The position numbers were made by a program, and so were the translations under genes. DNA of 64,000 nt from an uncultured Prevotellaceae bacterium (lineage in GTDB: Bacteria > Bacteroidota > Bacteroidia > Bacteroidales > Muribaculaceae), in assembly GCA_947167995.1 (NCBI GenBank), contig CAMVKS010000004.1:5604-69603 (forward strand). The letters run 5' to 3'. Of this stretch, positions 1 to 33,117 are shown in pieces (position 1 is the stretch's first letter; each line of letters starts with the position of its first letter). The notes under the pieces were generated by a model, which saw only the letters and a program-made list of their open reading frames with translations, made no database searches and was not told where the DNA came from.

Positions 1-211
1 GCAAAACTCTCGACTGGTGACACCTGCAAAGTACCGCACGACGTTGATGCGCACGACTATTCTGCGTCGTTCAGTTAACCGATTATTTGACAACATCTAT
101 GCTCCTCTGTCTATAACGGGGCAATTTGTCGTTGAGCGACTTACCCACCCCTTACGTGAACCAAGAACTGTTAACTATTATGTAATAACACTTTGTCGAC
201 TATTGTGTTAG

Positions 212-327
212 CCTACGGAGTCCAAGGTGTTTAATTTTTCAGCTCCATTACTCCAAGACTCCGTAGAATATATCTCCGTAGAGAGTTGTAGGTGATTAGA
301 CGTTGAAACGGAACACCACTCAAAGTC
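212..327 (-). repeat. Solo copy of the ~114-bp palindromic 'ychF-tail' repeat, inverted relative to the arrays at 25.6 and 31.1 kb
   Basis: Reverse complement reads GACTTTGAGTGGTGTTCCGTTTCAACGTCTAATCACCTACAACTCTCTACGGAGATATATTCTACGGAGTCTTGGAGTAATGGAGCTGAAAAATTAAACACCTTGGACTCCGTAGG, which aligns along its length with the array unit. Confidence 0.95.
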
Positions 328-17903: not shown

Positions 17904-17911
17904 TACCTTTG
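17904..17911 (+). promoter_or_regulatory. Bacteroidota -7 box for the NUDIX gene
   Basis: TACCTTTG 21 nt upstream of the ATG. Confidence 0.6.
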
Positions 17912-17931
17912 TGGAATAAAACAGAAAACTC

Positions 17932-18318: not shown

Positions 18319-18531
18319 GAAACATGAAAACAAGTTTAACACAACTCGGCATCAAGACTTCAACAACTTGAACCAATTATAAATTTACAATTTATTTTTG
18401 GAAGTTTCAATATTTTTTAATAATTTTGGAGGCAAATAATTGACATCTATCACAAATCATAGGTAATAAAGAGAAAATGAGATCATCCAATTTATAATTA
18501 ACTTTTTGTCTAACTAAAAAACAAAGCATTT

Positions 18532-19431
18532 ATGAAAAAAGTTTTATTTGCTTTAGCATTATGCGTGTCTTTTAGTGGGATGGCACAACTCTTGAATGTG
18601 ACTTCGATAGAGAAAATCAACATTCCAGAATCTAATGCCAACAAAGTTGCAGCAATCAGTCCTCAAGGTGACTACATCCTGGTGACTACCGACTACAACT
18701 GTGGTCTCACTAAATTTGACTTGGCAACGGGCGCCTCGCAGGTCATCACCCAGGCGCAAGGAGCCGGTTTTGATGCACAGATCTCAAGCGATGGAAAAAC
18801 TGTTGTCTATCGTGAGAGGTCTACCAAGAACCACTTGCAGATGACCGCCGTCAAATGCAGGAACCTCGAAACGGGTGCCGAGCAGCAGCTCGTAAAACCC
18901 ACTCACAACTTGCAGGCTGTCGCTATCGACGGCAACACTGCCATTGCCATCGACAAGGGCAAGATGTCGAAGAAAGCTATTGCCGAGGGCAAAGCACAGG
19001 TCAGCGTACCGGTACTCTCGACACAGAACTTCTACATGTACATCACCCAGAATGGCAAGACCCGCATGCTCGCACCCAAGGGCAGCGGCTACCGCTACAT
19101 CTGGGCTTCTCTCTCGCCCGATGCCAGCAAGGTGCTCTTCTGCTGCAGTGGCAACGGTGCCTATGTGTGCAACCTTGACGGCAGTGGCCTCATCAGCCTT
19201 GGCAACTACCGCGCTCCCAAGTGGATGGGCAATGACATGGTAGTGGCTATGGACTGCAAGGACAACGGCGAGGTATTCACCTCGAGCGAGGTTGTCGTTC
19301 TTGACCTCAGCGGCGACAAGCAGGTGCTCACTGGCGACGACGTGATTGCCATGTACCCCCTTCCTGCCGATGGCAAGATTGCGTTCTCTACTCCCACCGG
19401 CGAGGCCTATATTATTAACTTTACTAAATAA
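18532..19431 (+). CDS. Secreted beta-propeller (TolB/WD40-like) protein
   Basis: Signal peptide ending SGMA|Q; repeated ISPQGD, ISSDGK, LSPDAS blade motifs. Confidence 0.75.
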   Translation: MKKVLFALALCVSFSGMAQLLNVTSIEKINIPESNANKVAAISPQGDYILVTTDYNCGLTKFDLATGASQVITQAQGAGFDAQISSDGKTVVYRERSTKNHLQMTAVKCRNLETGAEQQLVKPTHNLQAVAIDGNTAIAIDKGKMSKKAIAEGKAQVSVPVLSTQNFYMYITQNGKTRMLAPKGSGYRYIWASLSPDASKVLFCCSGNGAYVCNLDGSGLISLGNYRAPKWMGNDMVVAMDCKDNGEVFTSSEVVVLDLSGDKQVLTGDDVIAMYPLPADGKIAFSTPTGEAYIINFTK

Positions 19432-19446
19432 AGGAGGAACCATATT

Positions 19447-22400
19447 ATGAAGAAATATATACTTTTACTGGCAGCAGCCGTAGTAGCTGGTTTCTCGCTT
19501 CAGGCAAAGACTACCGATGAGTTCCGCATTTATCTGAATCCCGGTCATGGCAGCTATGGTGCCAACGACCGTCCAATGCCAACGATAGGACATCCCCACA
19601 CTGGCCAGCTCAATGCCGAGGGCACTACATGGATGGACACCGACACCCTGGGCTTCTATGAAGGACGTGGCACGCTGCCACGAGCTTTTGGAATTAAGGA
19701 TTATCTTAAATCGGTGGGGGTAAAAAGCGAGAACATCGTAATGAGCCGTGAGGCAAACGGACCATGGCCTTACACCACACCAAATAGCGACTATGACCCC
19801 AATCACATCTACAACAAAAACCTTGCCGACATCTGCGAGGAGGTAGAAGAGGGCAACTTCGACATGTTCATCTCGTCGCACTCCAATGCTGCTACCGACG
19901 GCACAAGCACCAATTATCCGCTGATTCTCTATCGCGGCTACGACACTGGCACCACTGGTCCTGCTGGTTACAACGGACCAGGTGTTGCCGGCAGCGACGA
20001 CATGGCACGCACCGTGTGGCCATTCCACCACATGGGCGAGATTGATCCACAGAGCCACTACAGCGCAACAAGCATGAACGTGCGTGGCGACATCAGCTTC
20101 TATGGCAGCTACAGCACTGCCACACGCAACAATGGCAAGCAGTACAGCGGCTACCTGGGCGTGCTCAAGCATGGCGTTCCAGGCTATCTGAACGAGGGCT
20201 TCTTCCACACCTATCAGCCAGCACGTCACCGCGCTCTGAACTTCGACTACGACCGTCTTGAGGGTATCCGCGAGGCTCGCGGTGTTGCCACCTACTGGGG
20301 TTTCAACCTCACAGGCAAGGGCGAGATTGCCGGTACCGTGAAGGACTTGCACGAGAAAATCGTTGACAACCTCTACAAGTATGCCTACGGCACCGACGAC
20401 CAGTGGCTGCCCATCAATGGCGCACAAGTAGTTCTCAAGAAGAACGGCACCGAGGTTGCTACCTACACCGTCGACAACGAGTGGAACGGATTCTTTGCTT
20501 TCTTCGACCTCGAACCAGGCAACTATACTCTTGAGGCTACCGCCCAGGGCTATAAGCTGCTCGATGAACCCATCGCAGCTACCGTTACCGCCAACAACAC
20601 CTGCTTCTCTTTCATCAAACTTGAGAACGAAAACTACGTTCCCGAGGAGGAAGTTTATGAGAACTATCCCGACCCAGCACAGCCCGCTTATCTCAAGCTT
20701 CCTGGCGAGATTGTCTTTGCTCAGGACGAGGGTACTACCTACGACGGCATACTGGGCAATGTGGCGCAAGCATTGCAGTATGGCGACTCAACTATCGTTC
20801 TCTCGCACGAGGGCAAGCTTGCTCACCTCTACCTTGTTGACAACAACACCAAGCAGGTAGTCAAGGAGCTCAGCACCGAGGGCATCTTCAGCATGGACCA
20901 GCCCAACTTCTACAACCAGATTGGTGCTATCGCTCTGAGTGCCGACCACAAGCTCGTGGGTGTGAGCGCAGTGCGCACCAGCTTCAACAACGACTACACC
21001 GATGGCTACCCACGCGGAACAATGTATGCTTACTACTGGAACGACTTTGACGCAACTCCTACCGAGTGGTTCACGAGTCAGTACTCTTCTAACTTCTACA
21101 GGGCCGACGCCGGATTAGGTCTCGCAGTGAGTGGCCCCGTCAAGGAGGCTGTGGTTTGCGTTCCTATTGCTACTAATAGTACCTCTACACGTGGCGTGCG
21201 GCCTGCATTCTTCGTTATTTCCGAAGGCAATGTAGTAAGCACCAGCCGTGCCAACGCCAATAACACTATCACTCTGGTAGAACTTGGTGACCCATTGGCT
21301 ACCGAAGGCAACTTCGGCAATTATGACGTTGCCAACTATGGTACAATCAAGGTGGCAGTATCGCCATTCAACGACCATGCTTTCATCATTGGTGGCTCAA
21401 AATCTGGCAAGCTCTATGAGTTCCCAGTTACTACCGACGGTGGCATTCCCGATTGCAACGTGTTTAATGCCGATACCGAGCTGCTTGGCAACGGCATGCA
21501 AATCTTCAAGTATGCAGGTCACAAGCTCTTGGTTGCTCCTTACGGAACCAAGAACGACGTGAAGGGCATCAAGGTTTATGACATCACCGATGGCCTGGCA
21601 AATGCTAAGCTCGTGAACACAGTCAATACTGACATCAACACAGATAAGGCTATCACTGCCAACACCGCCGACTTCGCATGGGCCGGTGCTAAGGTCATTG
21701 GTGAGGACATCCACGCTTATCTCGCTGGAAGCGACGCCAACATCGTGAAATTTGCTACCGACGGCGTTGAGCAACCAGTGGTTAAGGGTATCTACGCCTA
21801 CGACCTGAACTACAACCTCGAAGGCGACAACTACACCTTCACTTTCAAGGCTAACGACAATGCCAATGAGGGTTACATCACCTTCCGCGATGTCGACACC
21901 AACGAGGTTCTTGCTACATTCCCACTTTCTAACGTTGTGACTGGTGCCAACGAAATCACCATTCCAGTAGCTGACCTTCCCTCTGTTCCCGATGGTGAGC
22001 AAGGTTGCATCAAGATGCATTGGGAAATCACTCTCGTGGGCGACCCAATCGCACGCATCAACAAGCTTAACAATCCCGATGACTTCACATTTAGCCGCAT
22101 TGGTAATGCTGTTGACGACAATCCCGAGAGTCCTTACTTCGGACGCTTCTACCTCGTTAACCGCATCGGCTCAAGCAACACCAGCAATGCTATCTATGCC
22201 TACACTCCCGAATGGCAACAGATTGGTGGCCCAATCAGCGGTGAGTACACCCTTGGCAACCCATTCCGTCTGGATATCGACCAGAATGGTACTGTTTACC
22301 TTGCCAACTGGGCCGACGGTGCTCGCTCGGGTGTGTTCAAGCTCAATCCCGAGACATTGAGCGGCGACCTTGAGCCATTCTTTATTGGCTCTCACGCCAG

Positions 22401-23283
22401 TGATGGTACTATCACCAACGACGCTGGTCAGATGATGTGTACTTCCACTCCTTCGGTATTCGTTACAGGCACAGGTGCCAACACTCACATGTATTGCCAC
22501 CTTGAGGATGCCAACAACGACATCTCTCAATACAACATTGGTAACGAGGATGGCACAATCATGGAGAACTGGACCGAAGCACCAACCCGCATGTGGGGCA
22601 TTGGCGCTAAGCTCATCAGTACTCATGCAGCAGTGATTGGCGAGACTGAGGATGGTGGTATCTGGGTAGTTCAGAACCGCAGCGCCGGCAACAACAACTC
22701 AAGTGTACCTTCTATCATCTATGTAAACCCAGAGGGACAAATTGTTTATAATAGTGGTGACGTCGACAACCCAATCCACGAGCACCTCACTGGTACTCAA
22801 TACTGCGCAGGTGCTATCAGCGCCGACGGTACCGAGCTTGTTGTTAACCAACCCGACGGAACTCTCAAGTTCTTTGAGATTCAATATGGCAGCGATGGCG
22901 TTCCCGCTTTGAACTACAAGTATGAATACAAGCACGGTGTAGGCAACCTGGTTACTCAAATCAACTATGACTACGCTGGTAACCTGTTCGTTTCGGCCGG
23001 CAAGCTGGCTATCCTGTCAATGCCTACCGAGAACAACACCCACACTACTCCTGCCAAGAGCGAATATATCGTGATGACTGGCGAGGAGCAGCAAGTTATT
23101 CCAGGCGACGTGAACGGCGACGGTGATGTGAACTCAGTGGACATCACTATCCTCTACAACTACCTCCTCAATGGTGACACCGAGGGCATGGTCAACGGCG
23201 ACCAGAGTGGCGACGGTGAAATCACCTCGGTAGATATTACAACTGTTTACAACGTAATCCTCGGCAGTAAGAAAAGAAAATAA
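19447..23283 (+). CDS. Large secreted N-acetylmuramoyl-L-alanine amidase (Amidase_3-like) with C-terminal dockerin
   Basis: YLNPGHG, FYEG, ISSHSNA and LNEGFFH metal/catalytic motifs; carboxypeptidase-regulatory-like Ig segment; terminal GDVNGDGDVNSVDITILYNYLL...GDQSGDGEITSVDITTVYNVIL. Confidence 0.85.
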   Translation: MKKYILLLAAAVVAGFSLQAKTTDEFRIYLNPGHGSYGANDRPMPTIGHPHTGQLNAEGTTWMDTDTLGFYEGRGTLPRAFGIKDYLKSVGVKSENIVMSREANGPWPYTTPNSDYDPNHIYNKNLADICEEVEEGNFDMFISSHSNAATDGTSTNYPLILYRGYDTGTTGPAGYNGPGVAGSDDMARTVWPFHHMGEIDPQSHYSATSMNVRGDISFYGSYSTATRNNGKQYSGYLGVLKHGVPGYLNEGFFHTYQPARHRALNFDYDRLEGIREARGVATYWGFNLTGKGEIAGTVKDLHEKIVDNLYKYAYGTDDQWLPINGAQVVLKKNGTEVATYTVDNEWNGFFAFFDLEPGNYTLEATAQGYKLLDEPIAATVTANNTCFSFIKLENENYVPEEEVYENYPDPAQPAYLKLPGEIVFAQDEGTTYDGILGNVAQALQYGDSTIVLSHEGKLAHLYLVDNNTKQVVKELSTEGIFSMDQPNFYNQIGAIALSADHKLVGVSAVRTSFNNDYTDGYPRGTMYAYYWNDFDATPTEWFTSQYSSNFYRADAGLGLAVSGPVKEAVVCVPIATNSTSTRGVRPAFFVISEGNVVSTSRANANNTITLVELGDPLATEGNFGNYDVANYGTIKVAVSPFNDHAFIIGGSKSGKLYEFPVTTDGGIPDCNVFNADTELLGNGMQIFKYAGHKLLVAPYGTKNDVKGIKVYDITDGLANAKLVNTVNTDINTDKAITANTADFAWAGAKVIGEDIHAYLAGSDANIVKFATDGVEQPVVKGIYAYDLNYNLEGDNYTFTFKANDNANEGYITFRDVDTNEVLATFPLSNVVTGANEITIPVADLPSVPDGEQGCIKMHWEITLVGDPIARINKLNNPDDFTFSRIGNAVDDNPESPYFGRFYLVNRIGSSNTSNAIYAYTPEWQQIGGPISGEYTLGNPFRLDIDQNGTVYLANWADGARSGVFKLNPETLSGDLEPFFIGSHASDGTITNDAGQMMCTSTPSVFVTGTGANTHMYCHLEDANNDISQYNIGNEDGTIMENWTEAPTRMWGIGAKLISTHAAVIGETEDGGIWVVQNRSAGNNNSSVPSIIYVNPEGQIVYNSGDVDNPIHEHLTGTQYCAGAISADGTELVVNQPDGTLKFFEIQYGSDGVPALNYKYEYKHGVGNLVTQINYDYAGNLFVSAGKLAILSMPTENNTHTTPAKSEYIVMTGEEQQVIPGDVNGDGDVNSVDITILYNYLLNGDTEGMVNGDQSGDGEITSVDITTVYNVILGSKKRK

Positions 23284-23305
23284 CTATCGAAAACTGCTGA
23301 ATAAG

Positions 23306-23341
23306 AAAAAGATGCTGTGCAAATGCGCAGCATCTTTTTTT
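23306..23341. terminator. Bidirectional intrinsic terminator
   Basis: AAAAAGATGCTGTGCA / TGCGCAGCATCTTTTT with A and T tracts on both sides. Confidence 0.85.
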
Positions 23342-23425
23342 AGTAGAAGCCTTAAAGTGTTAATTCTTGATGTCCAGCAAAATGCTTTAGGAACAAGGCG
23401 TGCATCCACCCCAAGTGAACCCATC

Positions 23426-23472
23426 AGCCGCAACGCGGCTTCATTTAACACTTACTACCTATAACTTAATAT
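23426..23472. repeat. Small AGCCGC/GCGGCT hairpin plus TTAACAC-type heptamers (family A)
   Basis: TTAACAC TTACTAC CTATAAC TTAATAT at 23445-23472. Confidence 0.65.
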
Positions 23473-24008
23473 TCAATGCCCATCAACTTCAATGCACGGT
23501 CAAAGAGCAGCCTGTGCATCTTTCCCAAGCCTTCGCCTTCAGGTTGCGCGTTATGACCATGACTTGATACCGATCGGCCGTCGGCAAGTCTTGCGCTGAA
23601 CCACCACGCATACCCGTCAAGGGGCTGTATCGCTGGCTCATAGCTCACGCCGTAGTCCAGCATGTTCTCGGCCTCGATTATAGCCAAAGCCTCCTTGAGA
23701 AGCTGCTCACCATCTTCGAGGACATATTCTGTCTCTTCACTGGTTGTGCCCTTGGCCACGAGCACCACCTTGTCACCCTTTCGCTCCAGGCGCACCTCGG
23801 CCACGGGTTCTATCCTCATCGCCTGATAGTGATACTCCACCATGTCGAGGGCACACTTTTCGACATTGCTGGTAGCCCTTTGTGGCTTAGTTCTCTCTCT
23901 CCGAGGCGTGGTGCGGCGTTTTCTTGCCTTTGCCTCAACAGCAATTGTGCCGCCAAGCAAAGCCAGCACAATCACCACCAAAATAAATCTATAATGCTTC
24001 ATAATCAA
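23466..24008 (-). CDS. Secreted hypothetical protein
   Basis: Signal peptide, Arg-rich linker, -7 box TATATTTG at 24042-24049; no family recognised. Confidence 0.75.
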   Translation of the reverse strand: MIMKHYRFILVVIVLALLGGTIAVEAKARKRRTTPRRERTKPQRATSNVEKCALDMVEYHYQAMRIEPVAEVRLERKGDKVVLVAKGTTSEETEYVLEDGEQLLKEALAIIEAENMLDYGVSYEPAIQPLDGYAWWFSARLADGRSVSSHGHNAQPEGEGLGKMHRLLFDRALKLMGIEY

Positions 24009-24192
24009 TTAGGTTTTAGCGGGTGAAAAAAATCACAGTTGCAAATATAACACCTTTTCTTTTAAAAAACAAAACACTTTTAAAAACCATTTTTTGTGAT
24101 GACTGAGCTTGGAAAAACTTTTTTCACCATCAAAAGGAAACATTCTCCCCCTCTTTGCGTTTATATATACAGGAAATAAAGAATTATTTGAC

Positions 24193-25665
24193 ATGAAACA
24201 CTTTCTACTCACTGCTTGGTGCTTGCTGATGTTGATGGTGGCGCCAAGTGTAAACGCGACAACTATGCACAGTAACGACAACTATAAAATCATGGTCATC
24301 AGCGACCCGCACTTGCTGTCACCTTCACTATACGACGATGGCAATGCGGCGCGGCAGCTCGACAAGAGCGATATGAAGATGGTGATTCAAAGCGATTACA
24401 TCATGCACTCGCTGATCGACGAAATCATAAAGGCTAAACCGCAACTGCTGCTCATCACAGGCGACCTCACTTTCAACGGTGAGAGGGCAAGTCATGAGCG
24501 GCTGGTCGAGCATTTGCAGCGACTTGAGCAGGCTGGGGTGCGCACCTTCGTTATCCCAGGCAACCACGACGTGATGTGCCCTTACAGTAAGCAATACAAG
24601 GGTGATGAGTCTAAGGCTGTTGCCAATGTCACTAGCGAGGATTTTGCCGCGATTTACGCTAATTATGGCTACGGCAACGACTCAAATCGTGACCCTAACT
24701 CTCTGAGTTACATTTGTGAGCCAGTTCCTGGACTGATGCTACTAGGCATCGACAGCAACATTTATGCAGCGAGTCGTGATGAAGAAGTTGTGTATCACAC
24801 CGACGGCACCGTTAAACCCGAGACTATAGAGTGGGTAAAGCAGCAGCTCGCTCAAGCCAAGCAGTCTGGTAAGCGAGTGATAGCTATGATGCACCACCAT
24901 CTGGTGGAGCACATCGATGGTGAAGCACTATTGTTGCCTAACTACATAGCATCTAACCACGACGAGGTGGCACAAGTGCTGCGTGATGGTGGAGTGAAAG
25001 TCGTTTTCACCGGTCATCTTCACATCACAGACGCAGCCACCGAGGATGGAATTACCGATGTTTCGACTGGTTCGGCGTCGACCTATCCCATTGCCATGCG
25101 TACGGCGACTTTTGACTCATCGCACGCCTCATTGAGTATCGATACTCGCATCTTTGACAGCCCCAGTAACTGTGTTCTCAGTCAGGGCCGTGCCAAGATT
25201 GAAAACAGTGCGCCAGCTTTGGCAGGCATCATCTCACGACGACTGTGGGACAAAATCAGCCCACGACTGGAACAGATGAAAGAATTGTTTGCCGAGGAAG
25301 GTGTCGATGTTTCGAAGGTGCCCAACAATGCTGTCGAGCTGTCGGCTTTGCTATTGAGACATCTGCAACAGCCTCTCACTCAAAGCCTCTTGATGGTAGA
25401 GTGCGGAGGTGAGGACCCCAACCAGGCCGCCGCTATCATCGAAGCTGTGAAACAAGGACTGCACGGCATGGTGGCCGACATCTTCCCCGACAATGCCGAC
25501 GAGATAACCGATTTCTTGATTGAGAACGCTATGCCACGAGTGGAACCAATGCTGCGCAGCGCGCTGGAAGACATCAACCAGGTGGGCACTCCACAGCAAT
25601 CCCACACCCACGACCATAGTCTAAGGATTAGACTTGTCGACCAACACCTCTCTACGGAGCTATAA
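24193..25665 (+). CDS. Secreted calcineurin-like metallophosphoesterase
   Basis: SDPH, TGDLT, PGNHD, HH and GHLH motifs; start moved to MKHFLL (signal peptide); last codons lie inside the repeat array. Confidence 0.9.
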   Translation: MKHFLLTAWCLLMLMVAPSVNATTMHSNDNYKIMVISDPHLLSPSLYDDGNAARQLDKSDMKMVIQSDYIMHSLIDEIIKAKPQLLLITGDLTFNGERASHERLVEHLQRLEQAGVRTFVIPGNHDVMCPYSKQYKGDESKAVANVTSEDFAAIYANYGYGNDSNRDPNSLSYICEPVPGLMLLGIDSNIYAASRDEEVVYHTDGTVKPETIEWVKQQLAQAKQSGKRVIAMMHHHLVEHIDGEALLLPNYIASNHDEVAQVLRDGGVKVVFTGHLHITDAATEDGITDVSTGSASTYPIAMRTATFDSSHASLSIDTRIFDSPSNCVLSQGRAKIENSAPALAGIISRRLWDKISPRLEQMKELFAEEGVDVSKVPNNAVELSALLLRHLQQPLTQSLLMVECGGEDPNQAAAIIEAVKQGLHGMVADIFPDNADEITDFLIENAMPRVEPMLRSALEDINQVGTPQQSHTHDHSLRIRLVDQHLSTEL

Positions 25666-26221
25666 TCTACGGAGTCTTGGAGTAATGGAGTTGAAAAATA
25701 AAACTCCTTGGACTCCGTAGACTTTGAGTGGTGTTCAGCTTCAACATCTAATCACCTACAACTCTCTACGGAACTATATTCTACGGAGTCTTGGAGTAAT
25801 GGAGTTGACAATAAAAACTCCTTGGACTCCGTAGACTTTGAGTGGTGTTCAGCTTCAACATCTAATCACCTACAACTCTCTACGGAACTATATTCTACGG
25901 AGTCTTGGAGTAATGGAGTTGAAAAATAAAACTCCTTGGACTCCGTAGACTTTGAGTGGTGTTCAGCTTCAACATCTAATCACCTACAACTCTCTACGGA
26001 ACTATATTCTACGGAGTCTTGGAGTAATGGAGTTGACAATAAAAACTCCTTGGACTCCGTAGACTTTGAGTGGTGTTCAGCTTCAACATCTAATCACCTA
26101 CAACTCTCTACGGAACTATATTCTACGGAGTCTTGGAGTAATGGAGTTGACAATAAAAACTCCTTGGACTCCATGACTCCGTAGACTTTGAGAGGTGAAC
26201 TCAGTAGACTTCAAATCACCT
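25644..26221 (+). repeat. Tandem array of a 114-bp palindromic unit (4 full units plus partial ends)
   Basis: TTGGACTCC recurs at 25708, 25822, 25936, 26050, 26164 (period 114); internal units differ only at GAAAAATAAAA vs GACAATAAAAA. Confidence 0.98.
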
Positions 26222-28018
26222 TAGAATAAGCTCGTAAAGCAGGGTTATATCGGCGGCCGTGAAGTATCCGTCGCCATCGACATCTATATAATAGATTTCA
26301 CCATCACTGAGAAAGTAGTCGTACATGGCAGTGAGATCGGCAGCAGTCAATACTCCATCCTTGTTGATATCGGCTCCACTACCCCACTTGCTGTCCAGCC
26401 AAGAAACCTTTTTAGATATCAAATCAAGATACTGCTGAGGCTTCTCGGGACCATGACTGCTGGCATATAAGGGCCAGCGCAGATAGTCATGAAACTCGGC
26501 TTGTGAAATCATCTCTCTCCACCGCCATGCATGCCTGATGACCTGGTCGAGAATGTGATTGTCGCAGAACTCACGCCACACAAGCCTCACCTCGTGCTGG
26601 AATCGTGGAAACTTGATTATCTCTTTTATCCACAAGAACGGATAATGCGTGCCGTAGTCATAGATGAAATGGTCGCCAGTGGTTTTGTCTTGAAAATAGC
26701 TATTGTCAAAGTCCCATACAGGGCCAAATTTCAGGGGTTCGTCGCCCAAGTCCTTATACAGATACAGGCTGCCCGAGAACGACTCCACATTCTCCAATAT
26801 CTCGTGAATGACATAGAAACGTGCCAGGGTGTGGATGTCGAGCAGACTTTCCCAGCCGCGGTCGCTCTTGTTTGACACATAGACGCAGCTGTCGGCACGA
26901 AACAGCAGGTTGTGGATGTAAGAGCGCTGAACAGACGATAACTGCTCGGGCGATTGAGCTATAAAAGTAAACAGAGGATTGGCTGGGTCATTGTTCTGGT
27001 GTTGCTCTATCACCTTCACGCCGTCATTGGCAAGCTCAAGCAGCCAGCCACCTGTCACATTCTCGGGGATGGTCTCCATGTCGGCTTGCTCCATGATGTC
27101 GACACGGCCACTCTCCACACGTATTTTCTCGCACAGGAAGTACAGTCCCTGATACTCCCCGTTGAGAACCAGCTCCACCGGCACCTCGGTTGGGGTGTAG
27201 GGCATGTTGAGCAGCCGGCTCAGGGTGAATCCTGTGGTGTTGCGCAGATAGCCGCTATAATCCTCGTTGTGTGCCAAGAGCACAAAATGCCGGCTCTTCT
27301 CAAGGCCTAAGGGAGACTGTTTAGATGCAAATTTCAGTCTATAGGGCTTTTTGTCGGAATGCAACCAAGTCCAGTGTCCACGACCTTTCACCTCAATGTC
27401 GAGAGGCTCATCCTCGCTGCCAAGCGATGAAAACCCGTCGTCAATCCACAACGTGCCGCCGATGTAATATTCTTTACTCGAGATTGTTGCCGAGTTCTGT
27501 GTGTTGAGATACACCACTGGCAGAGTGCCCGAAACGGTCACCGTGTAGCTGAAGTCGGGGCGCCAATAACCATCGCTCAGCTGTGCGTCGTTCAATGGGT
27601 AGTAAATCCATTTATCCGACTTGTTCCAGTCGATAAACATTTTCGATTTGAGACTTGTGCGTCTCAACTGTTCATCACATGCCTCGCTCAAGCTATCGAG
27701 AAACATGCTCAAGCGTGTGTAATAAGTGCCCGACGGCACATCGGCATCCACAAAGGTGAAATAACTCAATCCGTAAAGAGGGCTATCGATAGTGGCTTTC
27801 CACCAACCGCCCTTCACATCCTGAGTCATGTCGTAAACTCTGGTAAATTCATTGGTCACATTGCCCACAACCATCTTCACATGCGAGTACTTGACCTTGC
27901 TGTTGTCGAAATAATAGTCACCCTGTGCGACATCAAGCGCGAGCATGTCAAGGGTGCCCACACTCATCAGTGCAAGCATCAGCACAAGACCTACCTTTAT
28001 GTTCACAGGATGTTTCAT
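26216..28018 (-). CDS. CotH-family secreted kinase with C-terminal dockerin (copy 1)
   Basis: KGRGHWTW...KKPYRLKF, LYFLCEKI, GPVWDFDNS; terminal DINKDGVLTAADL / DVDGDGYFTAADITLLY. Confidence 0.9.
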   Translation of the reverse strand: MKHPVNIKVGLVLMLALMSVGTLDMLALDVAQGDYYFDNSKVKYSHVKMVVGNVTNEFTRVYDMTQDVKGGWWKATIDSPLYGLSYFTFVDADVPSGTYYTRLSMFLDSLSEACDEQLRRTSLKSKMFIDWNKSDKWIYYPLNDAQLSDGYWRPDFSYTVTVSGTLPVVYLNTQNSATISSKEYYIGGTLWIDDGFSSLGSEDEPLDIEVKGRGHWTWLHSDKKPYRLKFASKQSPLGLEKSRHFVLLAHNEDYSGYLRNTTGFTLSRLLNMPYTPTEVPVELVLNGEYQGLYFLCEKIRVESGRVDIMEQADMETIPENVTGGWLLELANDGVKVIEQHQNNDPANPLFTFIAQSPEQLSSVQRSYIHNLLFRADSCVYVSNKSDRGWESLLDIHTLARFYVIHEILENVESFSGSLYLYKDLGDEPLKFGPVWDFDNSYFQDKTTGDHFIYDYGTHYPFLWIKEIIKFPRFQHEVRLVWREFCDNHILDQVIRHAWRWREMISQAEFHDYLRWPLYASSHGPEKPQQYLDLISKKVSWLDSKWGSGADINKDGVLTAADLTAMYDYFLSDGEIYYIDVDGDGYFTAADITLLYELILR

Positions 28019-28025
28019 CGCCTTG

Positions 28026-28033
28026 CAAAGATA
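28026..28033 (-). promoter_or_regulatory. Bacteroidota -7 box for CotH copy 1
   Basis: TATCTTTG on the - strand, 8 nt from the annotated ATG. Confidence 0.55.
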
Positions 28034-28265
28034 GTGTTCCCCCTTTTATTATAAACTCATAGATAATCAAATTATTGCCACTTCCTCTATTTTGGAGAGG
28101 TCTCTCAAGACTCCAAGACACCTAAACTCCATAGAAGTTTTATTCAAGGCGCAGAGCATTGTAATTACATGGCAATTTGTGTGAAACTTCTTCCTGCAGG
28201 GGGGTGTTTTGATTAGTTTAAGTTGGTGAGCTTACTCAAAATTTGAAAACCTGCGAGATTTTGTG

Positions 28266-28273
28266 TACTTTTG
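28266..28273 (+). promoter_or_regulatory. Bacteroidota -7 box for the C69 dipeptidase
   Basis: TACTTTTG 28 nt upstream of the ATG. Confidence 0.6.
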
Positions 28274-28300
28274 CAGTGCTTTTAAAAGAAAAATGCTACT

Positions 28301-29929
28301 ATGAAACTAAATTTCTTTGCGACAATAGCACTGTCAATGGCTTTGCTGCCTGCTGTGGCTCAAGTGGATGAGACAACTCCTGAAGGGCGCGCACGCCTTT
28401 CGTGCACCAGCATCATGGTGGGCAAGAACGCCAGCACCGACGGCTCGGTGATAACCTCCCACACCTGCGACTCATGGTACCGCACATGGATGACCATGAC
28501 ACCGGCACGCGACTATGAGAGCGGCGCGATGACCGCCATCTACGAGGGCCGCATGCACACACAAAGCGCCAGCGACAGCACCAAGCTCTATGTTAAGGGC
28601 ATGATTCCACAGGTGCGACACACGTTCCGCTTTCTCGACACCTCCTATCCCTGCTTGAACGAGAAACAGGTGGCGATGGGCGAGACCACCATTGGCGGCC
28701 GTGACACCTTGCGCAACAAGAATGGCATGTTCTATATCGAGGAGCTGCAGCGCATAGCTCTGGAACGATGCTCTACCGCAAGAGAAGCCATTGCCTTGAT
28801 GGGCAGTCTGGCCGAGCAGTACGGCTACTGCGACAGCGGCGAATGTCTCACCGTAGCCGACCCCAACGAGGTGTGGATCTTTGAGATATTTGGCGCAGGT
28901 CCCAAGAAAGTGGGAGCCGTGTGGGCTGCCGTGCGCATCCCCGACGACGAGATTGCCGTCTCGGCCAACATTTCGCGCATCGGCACCCTCGACCTCAACG
29001 ACAAGGATCATTACATGGCCTCGGCCAACGTCAAGGAAGTCGCCCGCCAGCTCAAGCTGTGGGACGGAAAAGAGGAGTTCAACTTCTTCAAAGCCTATAG
29101 CGGCGAGAACTACTTCCATGAGAAGAAAAACTACAGCGTGCGTGAGCACTATATCATGAGTGTGCTGGCGCCATCGCTCAACCTGAGCGACACAGTGGCA
29201 TGGCTGCCGCTGAGCGTGAAACCCGATGCAAAGGTGAGTCCCGAGCAGGTGATGCAGTTGCTGGGAAGCTACTACGAGGGTTCCGACAAGAACCTGAGCG
29301 GACGTCACATGATTCCCAACCCTAAACGACGCGACAAGGACGGCAACCTCGTGGAGAATGAGCCCGATAGCATAGTATCGCCATTCAGCAACCCATGGAT
29401 GCGCCCCGACGAGATAAACATGTACTACGCCATGGGCGACTCGGCGATGAAGAACATACGCACCGTGAGCGTGCCCTGGTGTGCCTACAGTACTGTCATC
29501 CAGTGTCGCTCATGGTTGCCCAACGAGATAGGCGGCGTGGCTTGGGTGGCCCTCGACAATCCTGGCGAGAGTCCACGATTCCCAATCTTCGCAGGCACTA
29601 CCGAGCTCCCCAAGATGTTGCAGGTGTGTGGCCAGCACAGCGACCGCGACGATGCCGCCCTGTGGCACTACCGCAAGGCCAACCGTCTCGCCACCGTGCG
29701 CTGGGGCAAATTCCGCTCTATAATAGAGCCGCAACGCGACTACTTCACCGAGAAGGGCATGAGAGAACTGCACTATGTTGAACAGACCTGGCAGAGACTC
29801 AACGCCACCACCCCCGACAAGGCACAATCAATGCTCAACGGATATGTCGCCGACTTCTTCGGAGCCACTATCTTGCGCTGGGACGAAATCGCACGCGACC
29901 TGTGGCGACAAAACTGGACTGGATTTTAA
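28301..29929 (+). CDS. Peptidase C69 family dipeptidase, secreted
   Basis: SCTSIMVGKNASTDGS N-terminal nucleophile motif, LNEKQVAMGETT; signal peptide ending LPAVA|Q. Confidence 0.9.
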   Translation: MKLNFFATIALSMALLPAVAQVDETTPEGRARLSCTSIMVGKNASTDGSVITSHTCDSWYRTWMTMTPARDYESGAMTAIYEGRMHTQSASDSTKLYVKGMIPQVRHTFRFLDTSYPCLNEKQVAMGETTIGGRDTLRNKNGMFYIEELQRIALERCSTAREAIALMGSLAEQYGYCDSGECLTVADPNEVWIFEIFGAGPKKVGAVWAAVRIPDDEIAVSANISRIGTLDLNDKDHYMASANVKEVARQLKLWDGKEEFNFFKAYSGENYFHEKKNYSVREHYIMSVLAPSLNLSDTVAWLPLSVKPDAKVSPEQVMQLLGSYYEGSDKNLSGRHMIPNPKRRDKDGNLVENEPDSIVSPFSNPWMRPDEINMYYAMGDSAMKNIRTVSVPWCAYSTVIQCRSWLPNEIGGVAWVALDNPGESPRFPIFAGTTELPKMLQVCGQHSDRDDAALWHYRKANRLATVRWGKFRSIIEPQRDYFTEKGMRELHYVEQTWQRLNATTPDKAQSMLNGYVADFFGATILRWDEIARDLWRQNWTGF

Positions 29930-29964
29930 TATATAGCTCATAGTTGATCGTCGCAAGCACAAAC

Positions 29965-30000
29965 TTAAACACTTAACATTTACTACTTAACACTTAATAA
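29965..30000 (+). repeat. TTAACAC-type heptamer tract immediately upstream of ychF (family A)
   Basis: TTAAACAC TTAACAT TTACTAC TTAACAC TTAATAA, then TT-ATG. Confidence 0.75.
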
Positions 30001-30002
30001 TT

Positions 30003-31103
30003 ATGGCACTTCAATGTGGTATCGTGGGACTTCCCAACGTGGGCAAGTCAACATTGTTCAACTGCTTGTCGAATGCTAAGGCACAATCGGCAAATTTTCC
30101 CTTCTGTACAATAGAGCCCAACGTGGGCGTAATCACCGTTCCCGACGAGCGACTTAACAAGCTTGCCGAGCTGGTTAATCCTGCCAGGGTGGTACCCACG
30201 ACAGTGGAAATTGTCGATATTGCCGGCCTGGTGAAAGGAGCAAGCCGAGGTGAGGGCCTGGGCAACAAGTTCCTTGCCAACATACGCGAGACCGATGCCA
30301 TCTTGCACGTGCTTCGTTGCTTTGACGACGACAACATCACCCACGTGGATGGTACTGTCGACCCCGTGCGCGACAAGGAAGTGATCGACACCGAGCTCCA
30401 GCTGCGCGACCTCGAGACCATTGAGAGCCGCATAGGCAAGGTGGCTAAGATGGCAGCTGCCGGAGAGCGCGATGCCAAGATGCAGCACGAGGTACTCAAG
30501 CGATATCAGGAAGTGCTGAGCCAGGGCAAGAGCGCACGCAGCGTCACCCTCGAGACTAAAGACGAGCAGAAATTTGCCCACGACTTGTTCCTGTTGACCA
30601 ACAAGCCAGTGCTCTACGTGTGCAACGTCGACGATGCCAGTGCCGTAACTGGCAACAAATATGTGGATGCAGTGCGTGAAGCCGTCAAGGAAGAGAATGC
30701 CGAGATTCTCGTTGTGGCAGCGCAGACCGAGAGCGACATCGCCGAGCTCGAGACCTATGAGGAGCGACAGATGTTCCTCGAGGAAATAGGACTGAAGGAG
30801 AGCGGTGTGAACCGATTGATCAAGGCTGCCTACAAGCTGCTCGACCTTGAGACGTTCCTCACCGCTGGACCCAAAGAGGTGCGCGCCTGGACTTTCCGCA
30901 AGGGCAGCAAGGCACCACAGTGCGCCGGCGTGATTCACACCGACTTCGAGCGTGGCTTCATTCGTGCCGAAATCATAAAATATGAGGACTACATCCACTA
31001 TGGCAGCGAGGCGGCAGTGAAAGAGGCTGGCAAAATGCACATCGAGGGCAAAGACTACGTGTTCCAGGACGGCGACATCGTGGTGTTCCGCTTCAACGTC
31101 TAA
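30003..31103 (+). CDS. ychF: Redox-regulated ribosome-binding ATPase YchF
   Basis: GIVGLPNVGKSTLFN, NFPFCTIEPN, DIAGLV, GLGNKFL, C-terminal TGS domain ending DGDIVVFRFNV. Confidence 0.99.
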   Translation: MALQCGIVGLPNVGKSTLFNCLSNAKAQSANFPFCTIEPNVGVITVPDERLNKLAELVNPARVVPTTVEIVDIAGLVKGASRGEGLGNKFLANIRETDAILHVLRCFDDDNITHVDGTVDPVRDKEVIDTELQLRDLETIESRIGKVAKMAAAGERDAKMQHEVLKRYQEVLSQGKSARSVTLETKDEQKFAHDLFLLTNKPVLYVCNVDDASAVTGNKYVDAVREAVKEENAEILVVAAQTESDIAELETYEERQMFLEEIGLKESGVNRLIKAAYKLLDLETFLTAGPKEVRAWTFRKGSKAPQCAGVIHTDFERGFIRAEIIKYEDYIHYGSEAAVKEAGKMHIEGKDYVFQDGDIVVFRFNV

Positions 31104-31347
31104 TCACCTGCACATCTCTACGGAGATAAACTCTACGGAGTCTTGGAGTAATGGAGTTGAAAAATAAAAACTCCTTGGACTCCGTAGGCTTTGAATGGTA
31201 TTCCGCTTCAACGTCTAATTACCTACACCTCTCTACGGAGATTTATTCTACGGAGTCTTGGAGTAATGGAGTTGAAAAACAAAAACTCCTTGGACTCCAT
31301 GACTCCGTAGACTTTAAGCAGTGAACTCCGTAGACTTTAAATCACCT
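31080..31347 (+). repeat. Two-unit array of the same repeat, starting inside the ychF 3' end
   Basis: ychF tail at 31080 and a second tail ATGGTATTCCGCTTCAACGTCTAA at 31195; same CTACGGAGTC/GACTCCGTAG hairpins; ends at the CotH-2 stop codon. Confidence 0.97.
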
Positions 31348-33117
31348 TAGAATAAGGTTGTAAAGGGCGGTGATATCGGCGGCAGTAATTTCTCCGTCGC
31401 TGGTTATATCGCTTGTACTTAGGAAAGTATCATTACCATTAAGTAAATAATCGTAGAGGGTGGTGATGTCGGCAGCAGTGACGATTCCGTCGCAGTTCAC
31501 ATCGCCATTTGCTACGCTCCACTGCTCGTTGAGCCAGTTGTATTTGCTTTGAAAATAGCTCTTGAAGAGGTCACGGTCATAGTAAAGTTCGGCATTACCA
31601 TAATCGGGCCACCTTAATGCATCAAAAATTGCCGCTTGGTAAATCTTATTAATAAAACTGTCAATAAAGCTATCTGTCATCTCCTTGTAATGTAGCGAGA
31701 CATATCGCCGCCAATGTTTCTTAACTATCTGCTGGAAATGCGGAAATTTTGCAATCTCGCCAATCCATGTCTGCGTGGTCATAGGCTCCTCGTAAATAAA
31801 CTTGTCGGTGATGCCACGACAGAAAGCGTTGCCGAAATCCCACACTGGCCCGAACAAAATCTTCGAGCTTTCTCCTTTTTCCTTATGCCAGAAGCAGCTG
31901 CCATGGAACGACTCGGTGTCGTCGAGCAACTCCTGTACGATATAGAAGCAAGCCAATGTATCGGGGTCGATATATGTCTCCCAACTGTTGTCGGTCTTGT
32001 CGGTGACATAGATTGCTGAATCTACAATATTTATTAAGTCTAGGAGATATTCTCGCTGGGGGTAGCTCAGGTGTTCGGGTGACTTGTAGGTCAAGTTAAT
32101 CGCCTGTCCGTTGCTCTCAACGGTTTGAATCTGCTCCTCTTCATAGTAATTGTCAATCTCAACCAGCCAGCCACCAGTAATCTTGAGACTGTCGGTCTCA
32201 TAATCGGCCTGCTCCGTCACATTTACGCGGTTGGGTTCTACACGCACCGTTTCGGTTAGCATATAAAGCCCAATATAGTCGCCATTGAGCACCACCTCTA
32301 CTGGTCGCTGCGACGGTGTCCACGCAAGCCCCAACTGCCTGCTCAACTCATATCCCACAGCGTGACGCAGAAAACCCAGATAGTCATCGGCATTGGCAAT
32401 CAATGCCCAATGCTTATTGCGTTTCATGCCCAGCAGTGCTGTTTTCTTGTCGAGCTTGATGCGGTAAGGCTTCTTGTCGTAGTATTCCCATGTATAGTTT
32501 CCGCGCCCTCTAATCTGCATCAGATTTGGAGCATCGGCAGCCCCCACATTGTCAATGCCCTCGATGCCCATGTTGTCAATATAATAATAGGCATAAATGT
32601 ATTCATCTTTTGATGTTATGGGCATAGAATCCTCGGTGTTGATGAACATCACAGGCAAAGTCCCAGAGTAGGATATTGGCTGACCGAGCATCAACCAGAT
32701 TCCCGATGTCCAATTATTTCCACCAGTTGGTGTGAACACCCACCCTACCGGGATAGGGATGTTGAAAGTCGTGGTGTGCTTTCCGTTTAGCGAGATGATT
32801 CTGGTAATCATGCTCGAAGGATCCTCGTTATAAAACCCATCGGGTAACGAAGTCTCGACAAAGCAATAGCAGTGCATTCCTGTCACAGTCTCGGGGATTG
32901 TGATACTCCAAAGACTGTCCTCCTCATTTGTCATTGTCACCACATAGATCTCGGAATTAGAATAGTTGCCATAGACAAACTTCACAACGGAGTAATTTGT
33001 CAGCGAATTGTTGAAATAAAACTTACCTTTGGGAATGTTGAGCGCACTAACAGTAAAACCAGCCAATGCCACCAATAACACACAGAAGAATATAATCAGT
33101 TTTTTCATCACAATCAT
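31342..33117 (-). CDS. CotH-family secreted kinase with C-terminal dockerin (copy 2)
   Basis: RGRGNYTW...KKPYRIKL, LYMLTETV, GPVWDFGNA; terminal GDVNCDGIVTAADITTLY / DITSDGEITAADITALY. Confidence 0.9.
   Translation of the reverse strand: MIVMKKLIIFFCVLLVALAGFTVSALNIPKGKFYFNNSLTNYSVVKFVYGNYSNSEIYVVTMTNEEDSLWSITIPETVTGMHCYCFVETSLPDGFYNEDPSSMITRIISLNGKHTTTFNIPIPVGWVFTPTGGNNWTSGIWLMLGQPISYSGTLPVMFINTEDSMPITSKDEYIYAYYYIDNMGIEGIDNVGAADAPNLMQIRGRGNYTWEYYDKKPYRIKLDKKTALLGMKRNKHWALIANADDYLGFLRHAVGYELSRQLGLAWTPSQRPVEVVLNGDYIGLYMLTETVRVEPNRVNVTEQADYETDSLKITGGWLVEIDNYYEEEQIQTVESNGQAINLTYKSPEHLSYPQREYLLDLINIVDSAIYVTDKTDNSWETYIDPDTLACFYIVQELLDDTESFHGSCFWHKEKGESSKILFGPVWDFGNAFCRGITDKFIYEEPMTTQTWIGEIAKFPHFQQIVKKHWRRYVSLHYKEMTDSFIDSFINKIYQAAIFDALRWPDYGNAELYYDRDLFKSYFQSKYNWLNEQWSVANGDVNCDGIVTAADITTLYDYLLNGNDTFLSTSDITSDGEITAADITALYNLILR

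What the first reader, a model, noticed from the sequence alone, without database searches (positions are those of the whole stretch)
31080..31103. Every repeat unit carries a copy of the last 8 codons of ychF
Seen: ychF ends GTGGTGTTCCGCTTCAACGTCTAA (VVFRFNV-stop). The same 24-mer recurs at 31195 (22/24), at 25728, 25842, 25956 and 26070 (22/24) and inverted at 296-319 (23/24), always followed by T(C/T)ACCT and the hairpin. Established: the FxFNV terminus is a conserved YchF feature, so the gene is the donor; integrative elements typically duplicate the 3' end of conserved target genes. Inference: the unit is an att-like 'ychF tail + palindrome' module born at ychF and then amplified and dispersed. 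It could be the scar or landing pad of an undescribed site-specific recombination system. CotH read-through transcripts would also carry antisense copies of the ychF tail.
Basis: partly seen in the sequence, partly recalled or inferred. Interest (0 to 1): 0.85.

Follow-up and report, generated by a model that had tools for sequence, protein, structure and literature searches.

The report
ychF tail trapped in hairpin repeats
The last 8 codons of ychF were swept into a 114-bp hairpin repeat by a local tandem duplication and then copied with it to two nearby sites; the hairpin matches the ends of a small, strain-variable nuclease-gene cassette, and there is no sign of an integrase attachment site.

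Summary
The 24-mer GTGGTGTTCCGCTTCAACGTCTAA occurs 7 times in the window, against 0 expected. Each time T(C/T)ACCT and the hairpin follow.

It is not universal. The first unit of the 25.6-kb array has no tail. Six related hairpins elsewhere in the genome also lack it.

ychF is the donor. VVFRFNV-stop is present in all 30 genus ychF loci I read. A sister species and two conspecific strains carry a single unit.

Every copied tail is joined to the hairpin's right flank at the same point, RCTTTGA|(G/A)TGGT(G/A). The hexamer GTGGTG already lies in both ychF and that flank in single-unit genomes. This is the signature of one microhomology-mediated tandem duplication.

No tyrosine or serine recombinase and no Y1 transposase lies on the 79-kb contig. 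The integrase/att reading is not supported.

Conspecific strains do vary here. They carry 1-4 hairpins at ychF and 2-5 at the second locus. Five contigs hold a 129-aa GxxExxY (PD-(D/E)XK) gene between two hairpins.

Best reading: the hairpin is the gene-less form of a GxxExxY cassette, and the ychF tail is a passenger that marks where the copies came from. How the copies were made is not resolved.

The parts
30003..31103 (+). ychF (366 aa), the donor gene. Its last 24 nt (31080-31103) are the original tail.
   Evidence: Pfam MMR_HSR1 plus YchF-GTPase_C, profile positions 1-84/84 on residues 282-365. The C-terminus VVFRFNV* is present in all 30 genus loci read.
31104..31194 (+). Locus A, unit 1: spacer with the outer box CTCTACGGAG, an inner hairpin with a shortened right arm, and the right flank GGCTTTGA up to the duplication junction.
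   Evidence: Fold -15.6 kcal/mol, z = -4.7.
31195..31218 (+). Duplicated ychF tail (ATGGTATTCCGCTTCAACGTCTAA), joined to the hairpin flank at the (G/A)TGGT(G/A) microhomology.
31219..31341 (+). Locus A, terminal unit: spacer, full nested palindrome (outer stem CTCTACGGAG/CTCCGTAGAC) and right terminus, abutting the CotH stop codon.
   Evidence: Fold -27.6 kcal/mol, z = -6.6, 0 of 200 shuffles as stable. Alignment.
31342..33117 (-). Convergent CotH-dockerin gene. The allele is replaced between strains, and the variable segment starts at the hairpin array.
   Evidence: Pfam CotH plus Dockerin_1. L052 matches the window at 98.6% up to the array and at 99.1% from the GT4 gene onward, but not across CotH.
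25640..25727 (+). Locus B, first unit, without a tail. It begins at the element's left end, ACACCTCTCTACGGAG. The upstream metallophosphoesterase ORF reads 10 codons into it.
25728..26215 (+). Locus B: four tail-bearing units (tails at 25728, 25842, 25956 and 26070). The last has the full palindrome and right terminus and abuts the stop codon of the second CotH gene.
   Evidence: Copy number differs between strains: 2, 3 or 5 hairpins.
26216..28018 (-). Second CotH-dockerin paralogue, only 37% identical in protein to the first. The roughly 90%-identical repeat is therefore much younger than the gene duplication.
210..327 (-). Locus C: a solo inverted unit, exactly one array period. It reads GACTTTGA, tail, spacer, short-arm hairpin, GGCT, and begins directly after the stop codon of a 138-aa hypothetical gene.
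   Evidence: Present and unchanged in 10 of 10 conspecific contigs.

Best explanation
The repeat is built on an intergenic palindrome. It has an inner hairpin whose arms carry phased GGAGT/ACTCC boxes, plus an outer CTCTACGGAG/CTCCGTAGAC stem. This palindrome sat as a single copy between convergent ychF and CotH.

Its right flank reads ...CCGTAGACTTTGA-GTGGTG-AACTCCGTAG, and ychF ends ...ATC-GTGGTG-TTCCGCTTCAACGTCTAA. A slippage or template-switch event between the two GTGGTG hexamers duplicated the 114-115 bp between them. Each new unit therefore starts with the last 8 codons of ychF. The tail is a non-coding passenger.

The array then expanded and contracted by unequal recombination or slippage. 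Array-derived pieces were copied to two other sites within 31 kb. Locus B received a whole array, delimited by the palindrome's own ends. Locus C received one circularly permuted period.

The palindrome appears to be the gene-less form of a GxxExxY (PD-(D/E)XK, PF13366/TIGR04256) minigene cassette, and the gene-bearing form sits at this same ychF site in other strains.

Shown: the donor, the common junction, the single-unit ancestral state, the strain polymorphism, the cassette gene between hairpins, and the absence of a linked recombinase.

Inferred: that the nuclease, rather than host recombination, makes the breaks that drive duplication and copying.
For: - Junction. All 7 non-genic tails in the window, and all those in strains L052-L057 and L121, are preceded by the same hairpin flank RCTTTGA.
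- Pre-existing microhomology. GTGGTG is already in both partners in single-unit genomes: L058/L059 and the JGI contigs L124/L125. The sister species G015 has GTGGT in both (GTGGTA in ychF, GAGTGGTT in the flank).
- Donor. The ychF C-terminus is present in all 30 genus loci read.
- Confinement. Tail-bearing units occur only in the window. The junction pattern is absent from other GTDB species and from the JGI metagenomes.
- Locus C carries the array junction GACTTTGA|GTGGTG and the 8-nt shortened right arm typical of internal units. It was therefore copied from an array, not from ychF itself.
- The two CotH paralogues are 37% identical while the repeats are about 90% identical. This rules out an old segmental duplication.
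- Cassette link. A GxxExxY gene lies between two full hairpins at the ychF site in L052/54/55/56/61. Its 77% homologue in G020 has a similar left arm and a 4-unit 62-bp tandem array of ACTCC boxes.
- Genome copies C35 and C68 retain the cassette's 3' segment TTCTACTGTxTxGAAT next to the hairpin.
- All five PF13366 genes of this genome are bracketed by their own private repeats.
- No recombinase lies on the contig.
Against: - No cognate GxxExxY gene is present in this genome's assembly. Any nuclease-driven step would be historical or act in trans.
- The family has only about 14 hairpin copies at about 8 loci here, far fewer than typical REP or MITE families.
- How the units reached loci B and C is not shown. 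Ectopic gene conversion between pre-existing hairpins could explain B without any element-encoded activity.
- The 15 nt shared inside the two CotH 3' ends may be either part of a conversion tract or simple conservation.
- Array copy numbers come from short-read assemblies.
Confidence: 0.6

Rival explanations
1. Ordinary host processes only. The hairpin is just a bidirectional terminator between convergent genes. The tail entered by one microhomology tandem duplication. Units spread to loci B and C by ectopic homologous recombination or gene conversion between pre-existing hairpin copies. The GxxExxY gene is an incidental neighbour.
For: - The junction evidence is the same as for the best explanation.
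- Hairpins sit directly after stop codons of convergent or upstream genes at loci A, B, C, C45 and L123.
- Copy-number variation is typical of unequal crossing-over.
- The CotH allele swap has a crossover in the array.
- The cassette gene is absent from this genome.
Against: - Locus C is a single permuted period with no second hairpin to anchor a conversion tract, so at least one illegitimate join is needed.
- Locus B's copied segment begins and ends at the palindrome's own termini.
- The gene-plus-hairpin layout recurs with a 77% homologue at an unrelated locus in G020.
- C35 and C68 retain cassette 3' sequence.
Confidence: 0.28
2. One reading: the 'ychF tail plus palindrome' module is an att-like site (attL/attR scar or landing pad) of a site-specific recombinase that integrates cargo at the 3' end of ychF.
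For: - Variable cargo exists at the ychF 3' end in conspecific strains.
- A tail copy lies to the right of that cargo.
- The ychF-downstream neighbourhood varies across the genus.
Against: - No Phage_integrase, Resolvase or Y1_Tnp lies on the 79-kb contig. None was found in the Pfam scans of window ORFs between 0.5 and 44 kb.
- The cargo is 0.45 kb and encodes only a PD-(D/E)XK minigene. It is bounded by 62-nt hairpin direct repeats, not by tails.
- Most tail copies are 114 bp apart with nothing between them.
- Hairpin copies at 5 other loci have no tail.
Confidence: 0.05
3. The tail copies are functional. For example, read-through transcripts of the CotH genes would carry antisense ychF 3' ends and regulate ychF, or the tail plus spacer is a protein-binding site.
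For: - Tail copies are well conserved: 1-2 changes in 24 nt.
- They lie on transcripts that could be read through from the convergent genes.
Against: - Their conservation matches that of the rest of the young unit (89-100%), so no extra constraint is visible.
- The changes include non-synonymous-type substitutions (R to S, V to I), as expected for neutral DNA.
- The tail is dispensable in other hairpin copies and in single-unit strains.
- No Rfam family matches the window.
Confidence: 0.05
4. Assembly artefact: a chimeric or mis-collapsed repeat in a metagenome-assembled genome.
For: The genome has 121 contigs. A 114-bp period is close to short-read length, so copy number could be mis-estimated.
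Against: The same junctions at all three loci are found in independent assemblies from ENA, NCBI and Logan samples.
Confidence: 0.02

Closest known systems
REP/BIME elements as join-points of tandem duplications, and REP/REPIN-RAYT systems (from my own knowledge of the E. coli, Salmonella and Pseudomonas literature; not re-read here)
   Same: An extragenic imperfect palindrome lies between convergent genes, ends in GTAG-like motifs and forms arrays. It acts as a hot spot for duplication and recombination. Gene-less copies are dispersed around the genome.
   Different: The copy number is very low (about 8 loci). None of the three Y1_Tnp genes of this genome has the hairpin nearby. The arms are made of phased GGAGT boxes. 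The associated gene is a PD-(D/E)XK minigene rather than a HUH transposase.
GxxExxY / PDDEXK_3 hairpin-bounded minigene cassettes, as described in this scan's own earlier notes (e1-1211929, e1-820697, e1-882974, e1-1483451). My two literature searches found no paper that describes them as an element.
   Same: A roughly 125-aa TIGR04256 gene is flanked by inverted arms built of phased short boxes. Gene-less hairpin copies lie elsewhere, and the gene shows presence/absence polymorphism between housekeeping genes.
   Different: Here the gene sits between two complete hairpins in direct orientation, inside a tandem array. The array units have captured 24 nt of the neighbouring gene. That capture lets the descent of copies at other loci be traced.
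Integrative elements that duplicate the 3' end of their target gene (tRNA, tmRNA or protein-gene att sites)
   Same: The 3' end of a conserved gene is duplicated, and there is strain-variable DNA next to it.
   Different: No integrase is present. The duplicates are 114 bp apart. The duplication junction is a microhomology join with the hairpin flank, not a crossover core. The cargo is bounded by hairpins, not by the duplicated tail.
Integron gene cassettes with attC sites
   Same: There is a series of short units that each end in an imperfect palindrome. One unit carries a single promoter-less small ORF, and some units are ORF-less.
   Different: No IntI-type integrase or attI is present. The hairpins are identical to one another rather than cassette-specific. 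The units are only 114 bp, and the arrays occur at three loci.
Flank transduction by mobile elements (for example 3' transduction by retroelements, or flank capture by one-ended or rolling-circle transposition)
   Same: Donor-locus flanking DNA is carried to new sites and serves as a marker of the source copy.
   Different: The mechanism here is unknown and no transposase has been identified. The captured flank became internal to the element through a tandem duplication first.

Membership tests
Integrase-type integrative element (attL/attR at a gene's 3' end) | A tyrosine or serine recombinase gene linked to the site | tested here: not met
   PF00589, PF00239 and PF01797 searches of the whole genome give no hit on contig C4. 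Pfam scans of window ORFs between 0.5 and 44 kb show none. Strain contigs with cargo show only a PDDEXK_3 gene.
Integrase-type integrative element (attL/attR at a gene's 3' end) | The duplicated target-gene end flanks the cargo on both sides | tested here: not met
   Most duplicates are 114 bp apart with only a hairpin between them. The 0.45-kb cargo in L052/L056 is bounded by 62-nt hairpin repeats.
REP/REPIN-RAYT | A RAYT (Y1 HUH) gene flanked by the cognate palindromes | tested here: not met
   There are three Y1_Tnp hits (C14, C44, C20). None has CTACGGAG or GGAGT-box hairpins within 1.5 kb.
REP/REPIN-RAYT | Many dispersed extragenic copies, tens to hundreds | tested here: not met
   Only about 14 hairpins at about 8 loci.
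MITE | Terminal inverted repeats plus a target-site duplication at insertions | tested here: inconclusive
   The element is an extended palindrome. No consistent target-site duplication is seen. No empty site was available for locus C, because the orthologues are only 36-39% identical.
Integron cassette array | An IntI integrase and an attI site next to the array | tested here: not met
   No tyrosine recombinase lies on the contig.
GxxExxY/PDDEXK_3 hairpin cassette (a class described only in this scan's notes) | A TIGR04256/PF13366 gene of about 125 aa with intact GxxExxY and D...ExK motifs | tested here: met
   In the conspecific strains, not in this genome. TIGR04256 scores 129 bits against a cut-off of 35. 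The motifs GLLESIY and DIIID...LELK are visible in the translation.
GxxExxY/PDDEXK_3 hairpin cassette (a class described only in this scan's notes) | The gene is bracketed by inverted arms of phased short boxes, and the same arms occur gene-less elsewhere | tested here: met
   The gene lies between ACTCC-box and GGAGT-box arms in L052/L056. Gene-less copies are in the window and on C35, C68, C45 and C96. The homologue in G020 has similar arms.
GxxExxY/PDDEXK_3 hairpin cassette (a class described only in this scan's notes) | The nuclease acts on its own hairpins | not testable with these tools
   This needs biochemistry.
Microhomology-mediated tandem duplication | The same short sequence is present at both ends of the duplicated segment in the unduplicated ancestor, with one copy at the junction | tested here: met
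   GTGGTG lies in ychF and in the hairpin flank of single-unit genomes L058, L059, L124 and L125, and GTGGT in both in G015. The junction reads RCTTTGA-(G/A)TGGT(G/A)-TTC in all copies.

The most novel reading that the evidence does not exclude
The ychF tail acts as a natural barcode. It would show that gene-less hairpin units of a GxxExxY nuclease cassette are copied from one master locus, the ychF-CotH spacer where the gene-bearing form still segregates in the species, to new chromosomal sites.

In this reading, breaks fall at a fixed point 3-4 nt past the hairpin base (GTAG ACT(T)^). That point is shared by the boundary of the gene insertion in strains L052 and L056 and by the end of the solo unit at locus C. 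The small PD-(D/E)XK protein would be the structure-specific nuclease of an undescribed class of minimal mobile element. Its repair by-products would be tandem arrays that can capture neighbouring gene ends.
Probability: 0.22. Interest if true: 0.75.

Novelty: new variant of a known kind. Interest (0 to 1): 0.48.

Why it matters
The tail in itself is a neutral passenger, but it is a useful one. Its origin is unambiguous, so it proves that the units at 25.6 kb and 0.3 kb descend from the ychF locus, and that pieces of a hairpin array can be copied to new sites within a species' lifetime.

Together with the strain-variable GxxExxY gene at the same site, this gives a concrete and datable test case for whether this very large nuclease family of unknown function mobilises or destabilises its flanking palindromes.

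It also carries two practical warnings:
- Duplicated ends of conserved genes are not by themselves evidence of integrase att sites.
- Such elements can rewrite the C-termini of neighbouring genes. Here a metallophosphoesterase gained 10 codons.

Tried and rejected
- Old segmental duplication of 'array plus CotH' to explain locus B: rejected. The two CotH paralogues are 37% identical and the repeats about 90%.
- Linked integrase, resolvase or Y1 transposase: none on the contig, and no hairpins near the three Y1 genes.
- Known RNA family: no Rfam hit in the whole window at gathering thresholds.
- Empty-site comparison for locus C in sister species: the orthologues are only 36-39% identical, so it could not be used.
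- Orthologous locus B in sister species: the metallophosphoesterase is present, but its downstream neighbours are not syntenic. These loci only showed that the native stop was overrun in this species.
- More strains for locus B: only 5 contigs were found, and all carry at least one tail.
- Search for tail junctions at new loci in the GTDB species representatives and the JGI metagenomes: none found.
- Mosaic origin of the locus C hairpin from a C45-like copy (shared ACACCTTG in the loop): too few differences to support it, so dropped.
- A shared GTCGAC box upstream of three copies: noted but not pursued, and it may be chance.

Full report
**1. Observation**

The ychF ORF (30003-31103, + strand) ends GTGGTGTTCCGCTTCAACGTCTAA. 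Allowing 3 mismatches, the same 24-mer occurs 7 times in the window: 31080, 31195, 25728, 25842, 25956 and 26070 on the + strand, and 296-319 on the - strand. No match occurred in 100 shuffles.

Tandem Repeats Finder reports a 114-bp array of 4.7 copies at 25640-26172 and a 115-bp array of 1.9 copies at 31081-31298. The hairpin left arm CTACGGAGTCTTGGAGTAATGGAGTTGA occurs 8 times. This is one more than the tails, because the first unit of the 25.6-kb array begins at ACACCTCTCTACGGAG and has no tail. T(C/T)ACCT, a 29-nt spacer and the hairpin follow each tail.

**2. Anatomy of the element**

The terminal unit of each array folds as a nested palindrome of about 100 nt.
- The outer stem is CTCTACGGAG / CTCCGTAGAC.
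- The inner hairpin arms carry phased boxes: CTACGGAGTC-TTGGAGTA-ATGGAGTT, a loop, then AACTCC-TTGGACTCC-ATGACTCCGTAG.
- As DNA it folds at -27.6 kcal/mol, z = -6.6.

Internal units have a right arm shortened by one 8-nt box. In them the outer right box is replaced by the ychF tail. No Rfam family matches anywhere in the window.

**3. Genome-wide and phylogenetic distribution**

In the window's own assembly (121 contigs), full units with tails occur only inside the window. Six further hairpin relatives have no tail: C35:30166, C45:13718, C45:20467, C68:5248, C96:632 and C96:2570.

Among 60 relatives, only the closest species (G015; YchF 99% amino-acid, about 87% nucleotide identity) matches the tail part, and that match is simply its own ychF end. 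There ychF is followed by one spacer, one full hairpin and the convergent CotH-dockerin gene. Two JGI metagenome contigs show the same single-unit layout.

YchF ends in VVFRFNV-stop in all 30 genus loci I read, of 41 genomes with a ychF hit. The tail also lies inside the YchF-GTPase_C domain match. ychF is therefore the donor.

The tail-junction pattern is absent from all other GTDB species representatives and from the JGI metagenome collection.

**4. How the tail got into the unit**

In single-unit genomes the hairpin's right flank reads CCGTAGAC(A/T)TTGA-GTGGTG-AA(C/T)TCCGTAG, and ychF reads ATC-GTGGTG-TTCCGC. G015 has GTGGT in both partners. In every duplicated copy, at all three window loci and in all strain contigs, the junction reads CCGTAG(A/G)CTTTGA-(G/A)TGGT(G/A)-TTC(C/A)G(C/T)TTCAAC.

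At each junction the left side comes from the hairpin flank, the right side comes from ychF, and one copy of the shared hexamer sits between them. This is the classical signature of a microhomology-mediated tandem duplication, by slippage or template switching. Palindromes are known to promote such events (my own knowledge). The identical join everywhere argues for one founding event followed by copying, not for repeated site-specific recombination.

**5. Dispersal**

*Locus B (25640-26215).* It is homologous to the ychF array from the palindrome's left end to its right terminus, including about 15 nt of the CotH 3' end. However, the two CotH genes are only 37% identical in protein. The roughly 90%-identical repeat was therefore imported recently and was not inherited from the old gene duplication. 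In sister species the upstream metallophosphoesterase ends ...DHxLxIxL-stop. Here it reads on for 10 codons (VDQHLSTEL-stop) into the element.

*Locus C (210-327, - strand).* It is one permuted period: GACTTTGA, tail, spacer, short-arm hairpin, GGCT. It carries the array junction and the internal-unit arm deletion, so it derives from an array and not from ychF directly. It is identical in layout in 10 of 10 conspecific contigs.

How these copies were made is not resolved. Locus B could be an ectopic conversion between hairpins. Locus C needs at least one illegitimate join.

**6. Strain polymorphism and cargo**

Looking up the exact YchF protein returned 10 conspecific contigs. The ychF-CotH spacer differs among them.

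| Contigs | State of the ychF-CotH spacer |
|---|---|
| L058, L059 | One unit |
| L053 (and this window) | Two units |
| L057 | Two units with a different tail subtype (TTCAGC...GTTTAA) |
| L056 (complete), L061 (truncated) | One unit, then a 129-aa gene, a hairpin, a tail unit and a hairpin |
| L052 (complete), L054 and L055 (truncated) | Two units, then the same gene, a hairpin, a tail unit and a hairpin |

- The gene is a GxxExxY / PDDEXK_3 protein. TIGR04256 scores 129 bits, and the motifs GLLESIY and DIIID...LELK are intact.
- It lies between two complete hairpins. Its insertion boundary is at GTAGACTT^, 4 nt past the hairpin base.
- One sample holds both the gene-less and the gene-bearing forms.
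- Locus B has 2, 3 or 5 hairpins in different strains.
- The CotH allele itself is replaced between strains. The divergent block starts at the array and ends at the GT4 gene.

**7. Link to GxxExxY cassettes**

- The cassette gene is absent from this genome.
- Copies C35 and C68 keep the segment TTCTACTGTxTxGAAT. In gene-bearing strains this segment lies between the gene's stop codon and the hairpin. C35 even keeps GATAA-AAAGATTGA, which resembles the gene's last codons, fused to the end of a glycosyltransferase gene.
- A 77% homologue in species G020 sits after a different gene that looks like trxB. It has a similar left arm (TTCTACGGAGCTTGAGGAGTAAAGGA) upstream and a four-unit 62-bp tandem array of ACTCC boxes downstream.
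- All five PF13366 genes of this genome are each bracketed by their own private repeat family. One has a deletion derivative of the gene between the repeats.
- Earlier notes of this scan describe the same gene-between-inverted-arms layout in other phyla. I treat those notes as leads. The points above are my own checks.
- Two literature searches found 3 papers that mention GxxExxY and 1 that mentions PDDEXK_3. Judged by title and abstract only, since I did not read them, none is about such an element.

**8. The att/integrase hypothesis**

Whole-genome searches for Phage_integrase, Resolvase and Y1_Tnp give no hit on the 79-kb contig. The three Y1 genes elsewhere have no such hairpins nearby. 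Pfam scans of the long ORFs tested between 0.5 and 44 kb of the window show transporters, peptidases, dockerin proteins, glycosyltransferases and a radical-SAM enzyme, but no recombinase or transposase.

The other criterion, an invariant neighbourhood, is not met, because variable cargo does exist. The origin and dispersal are right. The proposed mechanism is not.

**9. Verdict**

The ychF tail is a passenger sequence, captured once by a GTGGTG-mediated tandem duplication at a palindrome downstream of ychF. That palindrome is most likely the gene-less form of a strain-variable GxxExxY nuclease cassette. The tail's value is as a lineage marker showing that array units moved to two further loci.

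| Claim | Confidence |
|---|---|
| Passenger / microhomology core | about 0.8 |
| Cassette link | about 0.65 |
| Whole statement | 0.6 |
| Nuclease-driven copying (speculative) | about 0.2-0.3 |

Noticed in passing
Genome contigs C59:15599-15940, C102:5073-5414, C20:37813-38154, C61:8364-8684, C10:41001-41339 (outside the window): All five PF13366 (GxxExxY) genes of this genome are each bracketed by their own private family of tandem or inverted intergenic repeats. On C20, a deletion derivative of the gene (5' and 3' ends fused) sits between further repeat copies. C59 and C102 are identical copies at contig ends.
   Followed up: partly
window 25620-25665 (3' end of ORF 24109-25665): The metallophosphoesterase gene has lost the stop position used in sister species (...DHxLxIxL-stop). 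It reads 10 extra codons (VDQHLSTEL-stop) into the first repeat unit, so the element rewrote a neighbouring gene's C-terminus.
   Followed up: partly
window 31342-33117 versus L052:9979-11742: The CotH-dockerin gene next to ychF is an allelic replacement between conspecific strains. There is only about 78% identity over the last 400 nt and no match beyond that, while the flanks are 98.6% and 99.1% identical. The divergent block is bounded by the hairpin array and the GT4 gene.
   Followed up: partly
Genus loci L024, L025, L030, L040, L042, L043, L046, L047 (ychF downstream): In at least eight other species of the genus, the ychF stop codon is followed directly by different palindromes made of phased short repeats (TTTAGG.../...CCTAAC, TCTAGAA..., TTAGAAATTAGAG..., TAAGGTC...). 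The ychF 3' end seems to be a recurrent home for such box-hairpins.
   Followed up: no
Genome contig C35:30139-30233: A hairpin copy is preceded by GATAAAGATTGA-TTCTACTGTATCGAAT. This resembles the last codons and 3' flank of the strain-variable GxxExxY gene, yet here it forms the end of a GT2-like glycosyltransferase ORF. It is possibly a remnant of a decayed cassette fused in frame.
   Followed up: partly
L093 (G020:C2, about 55.1-55.9 kb): A 77% homologue of the cassette gene lies downstream of a gene that looks like trxB. Four tandem 62-bp units containing ACTCC boxes follow it. This is another case of array formation next to a GxxExxY gene.
   Followed up: partly
window 191-200, 25628-25637; C45 about 13700: A GTCGAC box lies 10-14 nt upstream of CTACGGAG at three hairpin loci (ACTTTGTCGAC, ACTTGTCGAC, CCGTCGACTAT). 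It could be part of a longer element end, a target preference, or chance.
   Followed up: no
window 14496-33117: Four secreted proteins within 19 kb carry a dockerin type I domain: a BspA-LRR protein, a 1278-aa protein with CarboxypepD_reg/SpaA-like domains, and the two CotH proteins. They sit in a rumen Bacteroidales genome next to a glycosyltransferase and radical-SAM/SPASM cluster.
   Followed up: no
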